IMG/VR virus record: IMGVR_UViG_2802429240_000008
Length of the DNA: 44,891 bases
Strand: one strand, 5' to 3'
Source of the DNA: a virus
Taxonomy: Duplodnaviria > Heunggongvirae > Uroviricota > Caudoviricetes
The notes below the pieces were generated by a model. That model ran no database searches. It had not been told where the DNA came from and worked only from the letters and a program-made list of their open reading frames with translations. Made by a program: the position numbers and the translations under genes. Of this stretch, positions 1 through 17,443 are shown one piece after another (the first letter of the stretch is position 1; the number at the start of each line of letters is the position of its first letter).

Positions 1-1131
1 TCAAATAACCAGTTTTTTCCACTCCTTACCGCGTGCGTCGTTGTAAATATCGGTCATTTTTTGATTCGAATGACCCAGCAAAATTTTGGTATCAATTCCC
101 TGTTCTCTGAACAATCTTTCTGATAAAGATCTTTGCTCATGGAAAGAGGGTGGCGTGCCATTAGCACGCCAGTTGTAATCCACAGAATCCCGGGCTTTTT
201 TAAATGCGACTGTTAACGTTGCTGGTTTAACCATCCCGCCGCGCTTACCCATCCCCTTAGCGTGATGATGGTGCAATAACCACGGACTAAGGATGTAATC
301 ACGACAGGATGACACCACGTCACCCAGGGTAAGATTTAATTTGTCGCAACGCAGAGCCAGAGGAATGGCTATCCGGGCTCCTGTTTTTTGCTGTTCGACA
401 TGAAGGTAACCATCCCGGATATCCGAAAACTGCATTTTGCAAATATCCGAAAGACGCTGGCCCGTCATCAGTGCCAGCAGCATGCCGCGCTGTAAAAAGT
501 AACCATCCTTTTCCGCTGCGTTATAAATCATCATCCACTCATCAAAAGTCAGTCGCTGTCTTGATATCCGCACTTGCGGTTTTTTTGCCGATTCAGCCGG
601 GTTAAAGCCTGGCGGGACATCACCCGTTTGTTGAGCCTCCCGGAAAACATCGATCAATACCTTCCTGAAAATTTGTCCCATTCTGTTATGTCCCTTTGCC
701 TTGTATTCTTCCAGCACCGATACCACATCTTTTACGGTTATGGCATCTAGCGGCCTGGCTCCAAAACGTTCATCAAACACCCTGAGAGGAGCCGCTTTTT
801 GCTTCAGCGTGCTGAGTTTGATCTCTCCGTTCTCATATCTTTCCTGTTGAATTTTTCTGTAATTATTCAGAAAAATGGAAACGGTTGATGCGCCGCCGGT
901 ATCACTAATAATTTTCTCCTGCAGACTGAGCATTTGCTCCATTTGTTGTCTGGCAAGACGGCTGTTCGCTTCTGCTGCAATGGTTTCTGCCAGTTTCTGG
1001 TCAATACTGCCGAGTCCATGATTTTTACCTGTGATGGGATGCCTGTAACGCCAGTAAACTTTGTTATTTCTTTTGTCAAAATACGGAGATAAACCCGGAA
1101 CATCGGTTTTATATTTTCGCGGGCGCGCCAT
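1..1131 (-). CDS. int: Phage integrase, tyrosine recombinase family (376 aa)
   Basis: Complete ORF with stop at 1-3; C-terminal LLGHSNQKMTDIY box typical of tyrosine recombinases; its 5' end overlaps the upstream excisionase gene as in lambdoid int-xis pairs. Confidence 0.9.
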   Translation of the reverse strand: MARPRKYKTDVPGLSPYFDKRNNKVYWRYRHPITGKNHGLGSIDQKLAETIAAEANSRLARQQMEQMLSLQEKIISDTGGASTVSIFLNNYRKIQQERYENGEIKLSTLKQKAAPLRVFDERFGARPLDAITVKDVVSVLEEYKAKGHNRMGQIFRKVLIDVFREAQQTGDVPPGFNPAESAKKPQVRISRQRLTFDEWMMIYNAAEKDGYFLQRGMLLALMTGQRLSDICKMQFSDIRDGYLHVEQQKTGARIAIPLALRCDKLNLTLGDVVSSCRDYILSPWLLHHHHAKGMGKRGGMVKPATLTVAFKKARDSVDYNWRANGTPPSFHEQRSLSERLFREQGIDTKILLGHSNQKMTDIYNDARGKEWKKLVI

Positions 1132-4412: not shown

Positions 4413-4470
4413 AAAAAGGGCGGCAGAGCAGTCACGGAGTAAAACTGATTCCGCCAAACGCCACCAGAAA
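4413..4470 (-). ncRNA. dicF: DicF small RNA (53 nt, 4418-4470) plus 3' U-tract
   Basis: Reverse complement of 4418-4470 is TTTCTGGTGGCGTTTGGCGGAATCAGTTTTACTCCGTGACTGCTCTGCCGCCC, about 2 mismatches from the E. coli K-12 DicF sequence as I remember it, followed by TTTTT; located downstream of small dicB-operon-like ORFs. Confidence 0.8.
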
Positions 4471-10678: not shown

Positions 10679-11248
10679 ATGACTGAATTAACCAAAGAGC
10701 AATTAATCGAAGAAGCCAAATTAAAAATAGCGATTGCGAAATGCCATCCCAATTCAGGGGTAGCACGAGTAGAGGGTGAGTTATTCAAAATTGCACTGAC
10801 ATCGCTGGAAGCCGAGCCTGTAAGCCAAACTTACAACTTGCCAGAATTAATCGAAGGCATGGAGGTTTCCATTGATGTAAGCACTTGTGATGCTGATTTA
10901 GGTAATCGCTATTTCGGCACCGTCACCGAGGCGTTAGAACTTGATACAGCCAAGAATGGTTACATCCTCCTGGTTCAGGACGCAGAGCCAAACTTCGATG
11001 TAAATGGCAACTCTCCGGGAACTCCGGATAGTTGGATAAGCTGTAGTGATCGAATGCCTGAAAAGGGCCAGAACGTGCTTATTTCGGTGAATTTCGATAG
11101 CTCTCTGGTTGAACCGCTAATATGCTCCGCATGCTATACCGGAAGCACCTTTCGGCGCGGAGATGCAACGATTAAGCCGGGTAATGGTATTGAGCAAGCA
11201 ACTCACTGGATGCCGCTACCGGAACCACCGCAGGAGGTGAATCAATGA
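10679..11248 (+). CDS. DUF551-like phage protein (189 aa)
   Basis: C-terminal WISCSDRMPEKGQNVLI...HWMPLPEPP resembles the DUF551 signature as I recall it. Confidence 0.55.
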   Translation: MTELTKEQLIEEAKLKIAIAKCHPNSGVARVEGELFKIALTSLEAEPVSQTYNLPELIEGMEVSIDVSTCDADLGNRYFGTVTEALELDTAKNGYILLVQDAEPNFDVNGNSPGTPDSWISCSDRMPEKGQNVLISVNFDSSLVEPLICSACYTGSTFRRGDATIKPGNGIEQATHWMPLPEPPQEVNQ

Positions 11249-11371
11249 CCTGACCTGAGGCATTCACTACGGTAGGAATTGCGATGGCGGTGGCGCTGGT
11301 GGTGCATTCGATTTGCCGATGGGGATAAAAACGGTTTGCGGGAAAAGGAGAGTTAAGTAGAATTGCTGCGG

Positions 11372-11516
11372 GTGCTTGAGGCTATCTGCCTCGGGCATGA
11401 ACACCAACGGCAGATAGATAAAAGCCCCACCCGACTATAAATCGAAGTGAGGCCCCTATATGCTCGTCACATATAGATTGCCTCTTACGGACCGAAAGGT
11501 CAAGGAGAAGCAGGCT
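11372..11516 (+). promoter_or_regulatory. hok mRNA 5' leader with in-frame upstream start (mok-like, ATG 11460); expected location of an antisense Sok-like RNA
   Basis: GCTTGAGGCTATCTGCCTC resembles the 5' end of hok-family mRNAs as I recall it; 8-bp inverted repeat tatctgcc/ggcagata; in-frame ATG at 11460 gives a 70-codon ORF. Confidence 0.4.
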
Positions 11517-11672
11517 ATGAAGCAGCAAAAGGCGATGTTAATCGCCCTGATCGTCATCTGTTTAACCGTCATAGTGACGGCACTGGTAACGAGGAAAGAC
11601 CTCTGCGAGGTACGAATCCGAACCGGCCAGACGGAGGTCGCTGTCTTCACAGCTTACGAACCTGAGGAGTAA
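11517..11672 (+). CDS. hokD: Hok/Gef family type I toxin (51 aa)
   Basis: MKQQKAMLIALIVICLTVIVTALVTRKDLCEVRIRTGQTEVAVFTAYEPEE: single TM helix and conserved C-terminal Hok motif; appears to match HokD (RelF) from memory; AAGGAGAAG RBS. Confidence 0.85.
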   Translation: MKQQKAMLIALIVICLTVIVTALVTRKDLCEVRIRTGQTEVAVFTAYEPEE

Positions 11673-11740
11673 GAGACCAGGCGGGGGAGAAATCCCTCGC
11701 CACCTCTGATGTGTCAGGCATCCTCAACGCACCCGCACTT

Positions 11741-11769
11741 AACCCGCTTCGGCGGGTTTTTGTTTTTAT
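11741..11769 (+). terminator. Rho-independent terminator after hok
   Basis: aacccgc-ttcg-gcgggtt stem-loop followed by tttgttttt. Confidence 0.7.
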
Positions 11770-11892
11770 TTTCAACGCGTTTGAAGTTCTGGACGGTGCC
11801 GGAATAGAATCAAAAATACTTAAGTAGCGCGCAGGGAGAAGAGGGATGGACCCCAAACAGGGGAGTGCTATTTATCTGGAAGGATTCTGTTG

Positions 11893-12153
11893 ATGAAAAT
11901 CGAAGAATTACGTGAAATTTTTAGTGAAGATGGCCTCTATACTGTGCGCGTTGAGAATGGCGCTATTGTCAGCCACTGCCGTATTAAATGTTTACAGTCT
12001 CAACAAAGGAAGAGTGGAGCTGCGTTAATTCATTTGGTGGATGGGCTTGTGACGGATGGTTTTATTTTGCGTGCAAATGAATTTGTCACATCGTTGCCGT
12101 CTCTGAAAGAAGCTGGGATTAAGGCTGGTTTTTCTGCTTTTGAAGATGAGTGA
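11893..12153 (+). CDS. Hypothetical protein (86 aa)
   Basis: ATG at 11893; ORF between the hok locus and the DUF968 gene; no recognisable domain. Confidence 0.45.
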   Translation: MKIEELREIFSEDGLYTVRVENGAIVSHCRIKCLQSQQRKSGAALIHLVDGLVTDGFILRANEFVTSLPSLKEAGIKAGFSAFEDE

Positions 12154-16633: not shown

Positions 16634-16946
16634 TTTACGGGACAAAAAAAATTCCTTAATACTGATAACTTGGCGCACTATACACACGTTCCTGAAGAAA
16701 GCTATAGTTTTTTGATGGGGTTGAAGATGGCTGGATGTCTAAAATAAACATTGCTTCATATGTTCAACTATGCGTTAATGATTGCGTCGGTTTGAAGAAC
16801 AGACGATATACGAAGTAGTTTACTAAAGCAGTTCTCATTTCAGGTGTTATTCACTTATTCCTTCTTTGAGTCTCTCCAATTAAGTACGAAGTCGTTTCTG
16901 TTATACAAACCATTTATGCCGAAAGGCTCAAGTTAAGGAATGTAGA

Positions 16947-17162
16947 ATGTCAAATAAAATGACTGGTTTAGTAAAATGGTTTAACGCTGATAAAGGTTTT
17001 GGCTTTATTTCTCCTGTTGATGGTAGTAAAGATGTGTTTGTGCATTTTTCTGTGATTCAGAATGATAATTATCGAACCTTATTTGAAGGTCAAAAGGTTA
17101 CCTTCTCTGTAGAGAGTGGTGCTAAAGGTCCTGCAGCAGCAAATGTCATCATTAATGATTAA
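16947..17162 (+). CDS. cspB: Cold-shock protein, CspA family (CspB-like, 71 aa)
   Basis: [53 protein letters not shown]...: canonical cold-shock domain; AAGGA RBS. Confidence 0.9.
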
Positions 17163-17443
17163 AATTCATAGTTTGTCTGTATACGATAACGAAGAAGGCT
17201 GATGCCTGAGTGGAGATACAGACAGAGTGGTGAATATTGGATCTCTTTAATAAAGAGTAAGGAGGTCCAATACATGAAACAATGGCCAGCATATTTGGTA
17301 ATAACTTAATCAGGAAAAGTATGCTAACCATTGTGGTGAAGTGCAGGTTTGCTGCATGAATAGTTTTACAGCAGAAGCTAACTGCTGGCATAGCAAAACA
17401 AAGTGCGTAAGTGGATGACTCTCACAAAAAGCACCACAATATT

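What the first reader, a model, noticed from the sequence alone, without database searches (positions are those of the whole stretch)
11372..11770. Complete-looking hok toxin locus with an in-frame mok-like extension
The region has a leader resembling hok-family mRNAs, an in-frame upstream start giving a 70-codon ORF, the 51-aa Hok toxin and a terminal stem-loop/terminator. Whether a functional antisense Sok promoter is present on the minus strand (about 11440-11520) cannot be decided by eye. If it is absent, the toxin would depend on other control.
Basis: partly seen in the sequence, partly recalled or inferred. Interest (0 to 1): 0.45.

Follow-up and report, generated by a model that had tools for sequence, protein, structure and literature searches.

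The report
Complete prophage hok/mok/sok toxin-antitoxin locus
This is an ordinary, complete copy of the well-known hok/sok toxin-antitoxin module (HokD-type membrane toxin, leader ORF mok, antisense RNA Sok) sitting in a lambda-like prophage, and an identical copy is found in hundreds of sequenced E. coli genomes.

Summary
Window 11370-11766 (+) has every sequence feature of a hok-family mRNA:
- A 5' tac element that pairs with a 3' fbi element.
- A metastable 5' hairpin.
- A ucb box that sequesters the mok Shine-Dalgarno.
- A 70-codon mok ORF in frame with hok.
- A 51-aa Hok identical to K-12 HokD.
- A terminator.

The answer is most probably yes, at the position homologous to characterised loci: -35 TTGACC (11503-11498), 17-nt spacer, -10 CAATCT (11480-11475), +1 G at 11468. 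The predicted RNA is about 59 nt and ends near 11410.

The -10 is poor (2 of 6, but A-11 and T-7 are kept). It is almost the same as K-12 sokC (TTGACC-17-CACTCT), which is transcribed in vivo. The consensus scanner found nothing on the minus strand here, but it also misses the Sok promoter in all three characterised loci used as controls, so that negative carries no weight.

The Sok hairpin is selected on the antisense strand. It is 96.8% paired there against 81.8% on the mRNA strand, with 38 G-U pairs against none and four compensatory pairs.

Sok expression from this exact allele was not shown. Novelty is low: the locus is already known.

The parts
11335..11363 (+). hok/mok mRNA promoter: -35 TTTGCG (11335-11340), 17-nt spacer, -10 TAGAAT (11358-11363)
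   Evidence: Read from the sequence. The -10 column is TANNNT in all but two of the 44 aligned homologues (L014 is misaligned there and L060 reads GAAAAT). The scanner calls the same site in the sokW-type locus L017 as TTTGCA-17-TAGAAT. It misses the site here because the -35 matches only 3 of 6.
11370..11766 (+). Full-length hok mRNA (about 397 nt), inferred +1 at G11370
   Evidence: The Rfam leader match starts at 11370. Fold: -166.3 kcal/mol, z -7.7.
11370..11381 (+). tac element (GGGUGCUUGAGG), also the 5' arm of a metastable 5' hairpin (11370-11398)
   Evidence: It pairs with fbi in the minimum-free-energy structure. The first 40 nt alone fold into a -19.0 kcal/mol hairpin.
11421..11428 (+). 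ucb box (AAGCCCC). It pairs with the mok SD region in the full-length fold and with tac in the 3'-truncated fold
   Evidence: Compare. The published model is summarised in PMC9841398.
11449..11452 (+). mok Shine-Dalgarno (GAGG), 7 nt before the mok ATG
   Evidence: Sequence context printed.
11460..11672 (+). mok ORF (70 aa), in frame with hok; MLVTYRLPLTDRKVKEKQA + Hok
   Evidence: Alignable with K-12 MokC (MLNTCRVPLTDRKVKEKRA + HokC).
11502..11507 (+). hok Shine-Dalgarno (AAGGAG), 9 nt before the hok ATG. Its complement overlaps the Sok -35
   Evidence: Conserved as CAAGGAG in most homologues.
11517..11672 (+). hok toxin ORF, 51 aa, identical to K-12 HokD (RelF)
   Evidence: RefSeq annotates the same protein as HokD.
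11722..11734 (+). fbi element (CCUCAACGCACCC), complementary to tac with one bulged C
   Evidence: Duplex of -21.5 kcal/mol, starting 48 nt after the stop codon. tac changes are compensated in fbi in Photorhabdus and Citrobacter homologues.
11741..11768 (+). Intrinsic terminator of the hok mRNA (7-bp stem, GC-rich, then a T run)
11475..11503 (-). Predicted Sok promoter: -35 TTGACC (11503-11498), 17-nt spacer, -10 CAATCT (11480-11475)
   Evidence: Same alignment columns as the sokW -10 TAACCT (mutagenised in PMC8621323) and the K-12 sokC TTGACC-17-CACTCT. Not called by the consensus scanner, which also misses the known Sok promoters.
11410..11468 (-). Predicted Sok antisense RNA (about 59 nt). 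It has a 5' tail complementary to the mok start codon and SD, then a bulged hairpin followed by UUUUAU
   Evidence: The +1 was mapped from the annotated sokC 5' end, which lies 51 nt from the end of the Rfam match in both loci. Antisense fold -24.8 kcal/mol (z -4.9) against sense -13.2 (z -1.9). The 3' end is approximate.

Best explanation
A complete, probably functional hok/mok/sok type I toxin-antitoxin module lies in the early-right (nin) region of a lambdoid prophage. It is the intact form of the gene that survives only as a truncated remnant (hokD/relF) in the K-12 Qin prophage.

**Mechanism, inferred from the family model and supported here by sequence and folding**
1. A constitutive promoter makes a stable ~397-nt mRNA.
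2. A 5' tac / 3' fbi clamp keeps that mRNA closed. The ucb box sequesters the mok SD, so neither ribosomes nor Sok can act.
3. Slow 3' trimming removes fbi. tac then re-pairs with ucb, which frees the mok SD.
4. Translation of mok, which runs in frame into hok, allows Hok synthesis.
5. A short unstable antisense RNA, Sok, is transcribed from 11468 leftwards. It pairs with the mok translation-initiation region and blocks this. The duplex is presumably cut by RNase III.
6. Hok, a 51-aa membrane peptide, is made only when Sok supply stops.

**Shown versus inferred**
- Shown here: the ORFs, the homology, the predicted folds, tac/fbi covariation, the strand-specific Sok hairpin, and the promoter homology.
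- Inferred: Sok transcription from this allele, 3' processing, RNase III cleavage and toxicity.

**Likely role.** By analogy with hokW-sokW of prophage Sp5, the module may help prophage retention and/or speed up lysis after induction. hok points the same way as the early rightward genes and Q. Read-through from the early promoter could therefore collide with the convergent Sok promoter. That last step is my speculation.
For: **The locus itself**
- Rfam leader match, 103.9 bits.
- Pfam HOK_GEF, 81.6 bits.
- Hok is identical to K-12 HokD. Homology to K-12 starts only at window 11503, so K-12 lacks the promoter, tac, ucb, the mok start and Sok.
- In the full-length fold tac pairs with fbi and ucb pairs with the mok SD region (z -7.7).
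- In the truncated fold tac pairs with ucb.
- A 5' metastable hairpin is predicted.
- tac and fbi covary across genera, and fbi lies 44-55 nt after the stop codon in almost all intact homologues.

**Sok hairpin**
- The antisense strand is more stable than the sense strand in 43 of 44 homologues (mean -28.2 against -19.3 kcal/mol).
- The 11-bp stem is 96.8% paired on the Sok strand against 81.8% on the mRNA strand. There are 38 G-U pairs against none, and four pairs change on both sides.

**Sok promoter**
- It is homologous to the K-12 sokC promoter.
- The sokC 5' end was matched exactly by 5'-end sequencing (PMC2912661).
- mokC/sokC double-stranded RNA has been captured (PMC7373196).
- CRISPRi knockdown of sokC is deleterious (bioRxiv 10.1101/2020.03.04.975888).
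- It is also homologous to sokW, whose -10 was inactivated experimentally (PMC8621323).

**Distribution**
- The 116-nt Sok/promoter allele is at least 99% identical in 592 E. coli records, and the 40 best hits listed are 100% identical.
Against: - The -10 hexamer CAATCT matches the consensus at only 2 of 6 positions and has C at -12. A T-12C change abolished transcription of the R1 hok promoter (PMC9841398). A low-activity Sok promoter is therefore conceivable.
- The consensus scanner found no minus-strand promoter. It also fails on the three known Sok promoters.
- No RNA-seq, Northern or 5'-end data for this exact allele were found.
- RefSeq annotates nothing under the Sok region.
- Conservation of the promoter hexamers cannot be separated from constraint on the overlapping mok codons, the hok SD and the mRNA structure.
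Confidence: 0.85

Rival explanations
1. The toxin and mRNA elements are intact, but the Sok promoter is crippled by loss of the -12 T. Hok would then be held in check mainly by the tac/fbi-closed mRNA fold, or by Sok RNAs made from paralogous hok loci in the same genome.
For: The -10 is CAATCT, 2 of 6 matches, with C at -12. T-12C inactivated another promoter in this family. E. coli genomes carry up to 10 related places, and O157 Sakai carries 14 Hok genes (PMC2887945).
Against: - K-12 sokC has an equally poor -10 (CACTCT) with the same -35 and spacer, yet it is transcribed and needed.
- The -35 is near-consensus (TTGACC) at the optimal 17-nt spacing.
- The antisense hairpin with its U tail is maintained with G-U pairs that would be A/C mismatches on the mRNA strand.
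- The Sok target hairpin of this allele differs in sequence from the sokW and sokC types, so cross-protection would be poor.
Confidence: 0.1
2. The locus is an inert relic, like most K-12 chromosomal hok loci, kept only by hitch-hiking in the prophage.
For: Several K-12 loci are inactivated by IS elements or rearrangement. Some homologues fetched here have lost fbi or carry a truncated hok (L015, L038, L071, L067).
Against: No element is damaged here. Both ORFs, both SDs, tac/fbi, ucb, the terminator, the Sok hairpin and both promoters are all present. Identical copies occur in hundreds of genomes. The closely related prophage locus hokW-sokW is functional.
Confidence: 0.05

Closest known systems
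hokW-sokW of Stx2 prophage Sp5 / 933W-type phages (Takada et al. 2021, PMC8621323)
   Same: - Setting: a lambdoid prophage.
- Architecture: the same hok/mok/sok layout.
- 5' leader: window 11368-11417 is identical to the first 50 nt of their primer YO-351.
- mok: in frame, 57 nt upstream of hok.
- fbi and terminator: the same sequence.
- Sok promoter: in the same alignment columns.
   Different: - The Sok/target hairpin is a different allele. sokW-type leaders carry an extra ~21-nt insert, and sokW is stated to be 71 nt against ~59 nt predicted here.
- The promoter is TTGCCT-17-TAACCT there and TTGACC-17-CAATCT here.
- The Hok C-terminus differs.
- hokW has been tested experimentally. This allele has not.
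hokC (gef)/mokC/sokC of E. coli K-12
   Same: - The same -35 (TTGACC), 17-nt spacer and C at -12 in the Sok promoter.
- The same short-type Sok layout.
- The Mok N-termini are alignable (MLNTCRVPLTDRKVKEKRA against MLVTYRLPLTDRKVKEKQA).
- mok is in frame with hok.
   Different: - About 80% DNA identity.
- K-12 hokC has lost fbi to an IS186 insertion, whereas the window copy is intact.
- hokC is chromosomal, not in a prophage.
- The hairpin arms differ through compensatory changes.
hokD (relF) of the K-12 Qin prophage
   Same: The Hok protein is identical. The DNA is 99.3% identical from window 11503 to 11790, including fbi and the terminator. The downstream neighbour is rem in both.
   Different: K-12 keeps only the part from the hok SD onwards. 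Its promoter, tac, ucb, mok start and Sok are replaced by relBE. The window holds the complete form.
hok/sok (parB) of plasmid R1
   Same: The family prototype, with all named elements: tac, fbi, ucb, mok, Sok. RF01794 hits both loci. mok is in frame in the R1-like sequence too.
   Different: It is on a plasmid. Hok has 52 aa and is distantly related (Takada et al. give 44% identity between R1 Hok and HokW). From the alignment I read the R1-type Sok promoter as TTGCGC-17-TATCCT, which has a better -10.

Membership tests
hok/sok type I toxin-antitoxin (Hok/Gef family) | Small (~50 aa) Hok/Gef membrane toxin ORF | tested here: met
   PF01848 at 81.6 bits over the full profile. The 51 aa are identical to K-12 HokD.
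hok/sok type I toxin-antitoxin (Hok/Gef family) | Overlapping leader ORF mok with its own SD, upstream of and reading into hok | tested here: met
   ATG at 11460 with GAGG 7 nt upstream. It is 57 nt upstream of the hok ATG and in frame, as in 30 of 44 homologues. Translational coupling itself cannot be tested here.
hok/sok type I toxin-antitoxin (Hok/Gef family) | Long-range 5' tac / 3' fbi pairing that closes the full-length mRNA | tested here: met
   Present in the minimum-free-energy fold. The duplex is -21.5 kcal/mol, and changes in tac are compensated in fbi across genera.
hok/sok type I toxin-antitoxin (Hok/Gef family) | ucb sequesters the mok SD in the full-length form; tac/ucb pairing after 3' truncation; metastable 5' hairpin | tested here: met
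   Met in silico only. The predicted folds of 11370-11766 and 11370-11722 switch as the published model describes. The first 40 nt form a -19 kcal/mol hairpin.
hok/sok type I toxin-antitoxin (Hok/Gef family) | cis-antisense Sok RNA: hairpin with U tail, complementary to the mok initiation region | tested here: met
   The antisense strand folds at -24.8 kcal/mol (z -4.9) against -13.2 for the sense strand. Family-wide, the stem is 96.8% paired on the Sok strand against 81.8%, with 38 G-U against none and four compensatory pairs.
hok/sok type I toxin-antitoxin (Hok/Gef family) | Active Sok promoter inside mok | tested here: inconclusive
   TTGACC-17-CAATCT lies at the homologous site. It is nearly the same as the expressed sokC promoter. 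The -10 matches only 2 of 6, and no expression data exist for this allele. The scanner is uninformative.
hok/sok type I toxin-antitoxin (Hok/Gef family) | 3' exonucleolytic activation, RNase III cleavage of the duplex, toxicity of Hok | not testable with these tools
   These need Northern blots, rifampicin chase and expression experiments. They were shown for R1 and in part for hokW.

The most novel reading that the evidence does not exclude
This allele shares a re-registered Sok promoter with the hokC type. A 1-nt deletion removed the -12 T of the -10, and a 1-nt insertion created a near-consensus -35 (TTGACC). Together they keep the 17-nt spacer and also keep mok in frame with hok. If this makes Sok output lower or differently regulated, the module could be tuned to fire easily. 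One trigger could be early rightward prophage transcription running into the convergent Sok promoter on induction, so that Hok acts as an accessory lysis timer, as proposed for hokW.
Probability: 0.25. Interest if true: 0.3.

Novelty: already known. Interest (0 to 1): 0.1.

Why it matters
It matters little for discovery. The module is textbook, the toxin is already annotated as HokD in RefSeq, and a sister prophage locus has been characterised.

The practical value lies in annotation:
- mok and Sok of this widespread allele carry no annotation in the E. coli records checked.
- The Rfam family named "sok" matches the hok-mRNA strand, so automatic pipelines would place the antitoxin on the wrong strand.
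- The window shows what the complete ancestor of the truncated K-12 hokD/relF locus looks like.

Tried and rejected
- **Consensus promoter scan** of 11200-11900. It found no minus-strand site. I rejected this as evidence after controls showed the scanner also misses the Sok promoter in K-12 hokC/sokC, a sokW-type locus and an R1-type locus.
- **Alternative -10 registers** on the minus strand (AATCTA, TCTATA, CTATAT, TATATG). All were rejected. They lack A-11 and/or T-7, or they need 18-22-nt spacers or a poor -35. The mapped sokC 5' end fits only the CACTCT/CAATCT register.
- **sokW annotation in phage 933W** (AF125520, 12-24 kb). The locus is not in that stretch, and I did not pursue it.
- **Viral-contig scan** for related loci. 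The server gave no answer, and I did not repeat it because genome contigs gave 61 loci.
- **Literature search** for RNA-seq or Northern evidence on this exact allele in STEC. Nothing specific was found.
- **Rfam "sok" hit as evidence for the antisense gene.** Rejected. In K-12 the model hits the mokC/hokC strand, not the annotated sokC strand.

Full report
**1. Observation**

- Leader: the region 11370-11519 (+) matches Rfam RF01794 over the whole model (103.9 bits, E 1.2e-22).
- ORFs: an ATG ORF at 11460-11672 encodes 70 aa. The internal ORF 11517-11672 encodes a 51-aa peptide.
- Toxin: the long product hits Pfam HOK_GEF over the full profile (81.6 bits). The short one is identical to K-12 HokD.
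- Terminator: a GC-rich stem at 11741-11758 with a T run ends the unit.

**2. Anatomy of the mRNA**

- Promoter: TTTGCG-17-TAGAAT (11335-11363) lies 6 nt upstream of G11370. The -10 column is TANNNT in all but two of the 44 aligned homologues. The scanner calls the same site in the sokW-type locus L017.
- Full-length fold: the 397-nt transcript folds at -166.3 kcal/mol (z -7.7).
  - The 5' GGGUGCUUGAGG (tac) pairs with CCUCAACGCACCC at 11722-11734 (fbi).
  - AAGCCCC (ucb) pairs with the GAGG Shine-Dalgarno region of mok.
  - A hairpin covers the mok AUG.
  - GCCUCUU pairs with the hok SD region.
- Truncated fold: without the last ~44 nt, tac re-pairs with ucb and the mok SD region loosens.
- Metastable hairpin: the first 40 nt alone form a -19 kcal/mol hairpin.
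- These steps reproduce the published hok folding pathway, as summarised in PMC9841398.
- Covariation: tac and fbi covary across homologues.
  - GGGCGCUUGAGAC pairs with UCUCAAGCGCCC in Photorhabdus.
  - GGGUGCUUGAAGC pairs with CUUCAUAGCACCC in Citrobacter.
  - fbi lies 44-55 nt after the stop codon in almost all intact loci.

**3. The in-frame mok**

- The mok ATG has GAGG 7 nt upstream, and lies 57 nt upstream of the hok ATG, in frame with it.
- The same spacing holds in 30 of 44 homologous leaders.
- K-12 mokC/hokC are annotated as nested in-frame CDSs.
- An in-frame mok is therefore normal for the family, not a peculiarity.

**4. Sok**

*Strand of the Rfam match.* The Rfam match is on the hok strand. 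In K-12 the same model hits the mokC/hokC strand (L001 402-554, minus), while the annotated sokC is on the other strand at 453-511. The Rfam hit therefore proves leader homology, not an antisense gene.

*Position of +1.* The sokC 5' end lies 51 nt from the end of the Rfam match. The same offset puts the predicted Sok +1 at G11468 on the minus strand.

*Promoter.* Upstream of +1 on that strand lie TTGACC (11503-11498), a 17-nt spacer and CAATCT (11480-11475).

| Locus type | -35 | Spacer | -10 |
|---|---|---|---|
| Window | TTGACC | 17 | CAATCT |
| K-12 sokC | TTGACC | 17 | CACTCT |
| sokW type | TTGCCT | 17 | TAACCT |
| Third class | TTGACC | 18 | TAATCT |

*Experimental support in relatives.*
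- The sokW -10 was destroyed experimentally. Primers YO-421/422 change TAACCT to GAGCCG, and this unleashed HokW toxicity.
- The SokC 5' end was recovered exactly by 5'-end sequencing.
- mokC/sokC double-stranded RNA has been captured.
- sokC knockdown is deleterious.
- So a promoter with C at -12 and only A-11 and T-7 in the -10 works in this family.

*Scanner control.* The consensus scanner found nothing on the minus strand here. It also finds no Sok promoter in the sokC, sokW-type or R1-type loci.

**5. Strand-specific selection on the Sok hairpin**

- Window: the predicted Sok (11468 to 11408) folds at -24.8 kcal/mol (z -4.9). The sense strand of the same interval folds at -13.2 (z -1.9).
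- Family: the antisense strand is more stable in 43 of 44 homologues (mean -28.2 against -19.3).
- Alignment of 23 short-type sequences, 11-bp stem:
  - 96.8% of cells are paired on the Sok strand, against 34-55% when partners are slid by 1-3 columns.
  - Four pairs change on both sides.
  - The stem holds 38 G-U pairs and no A/C cells on the Sok strand, so only 81.8% of cells pair on the mRNA strand.
- The hairpin is followed by UUUUAU.
- This asymmetry is what an RNA read from the minus strand predicts.

**6. Context and distribution**

- The window is a mosaic lambdoid prophage. From the left it carries integrase, exonuclease, replication genes, a DUF551 ORF, hok, rem-like, DUF968/ydfU, rusA and Q.
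- hok has the same orientation as the early rightward genes.
- Related DNA occurs in 4723 of 5426 complete E. coli genomes.
- The exact 116-nt Sok/promoter allele is at least 99% identical in 592 records, many of them STEC. No feature is annotated under it.
- K-12 hokD is identical in protein and 99.3% identical in DNA, but only from window 11503 onwards. Upstream of that it has relBE instead.

**7. Verdict**

This is a complete hok/mok/sok module of a known kind, already annotated as hokD and ordinary. What remains uncertain is whether Sok is expressed from this allele, and what the module does for the prophage: retention, abortive infection, or lysis timing as shown for hokW.

Noticed in passing
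window 4418-4469 (-): Full-length DicF antisense sRNA (Rfam RF00039, 69 bits against a gathering score of 48), as in Qin-like lambdoid prophages.
   Followed up: no
window 16786-17227 (+): Match to the cspA thermoregulator 5' UTR plus coding region (RF01766, 150.8 bits). This suggests a prophage-borne cold-shock protein gene downstream of the Q region.
   Followed up: no
L001 402-554 (-) against annotated sokC at 453-511 (+); window 11370-11519 (+): Rfam RF01794, named 'sok antitoxin', is oriented like the hok mRNA leader and ends at the hok AUG. It is not oriented like the antisense RNA. Pipelines that use it would annotate the antitoxin on the wrong strand and about 2.5 times too long.
   Followed up: yes
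window 11475-11503 and homologous columns in L011-L071: Two 1-nt indels co-vary: TTAGCC against TT-GCC at the Sok -10, and GG-CAAGG against GGTCAAGG at the Sok -35. Loci with both or neither keep a 17-nt spacer and an in-frame mok (57 nt). Loci with only the insertion have an 18-nt spacer and a +1-frame mok (58 nt).
   Followed up: partly
window 11328 (left edge of homology in most hits): Most E. coli and phage matches begin at window 11328, just upstream of the hok -35. Upstream, this window has a DUF551 ORF (10679-11248), whereas PPompW-type phages carry a Paa/AdfO gene there. This looks like a mosaic junction at the edge of the module.
   Followed up: partly
window 1-44891: ARAGORN finds no tRNA genes in the window. 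Closely related prophages carry tRNA genes just downstream of Q.
   Followed up: no
L016, L035, L039 (genome contigs): E. coli-like hok loci appear in assemblies labelled Veillonella parvula MAG, Xanthomonas pisi (431-nt contig) and Acinetobacter idrijaensis (275-nt contig). These are probably contamination or mis-binning rather than real host range.
   Followed up: no
L044 1411 and 2040; L040 1356 and 1874: Photorhabdus temperata and Pseudocitrobacter faecalis carry two hok loci in tandem, about 520-630 nt apart.
   Followed up: no
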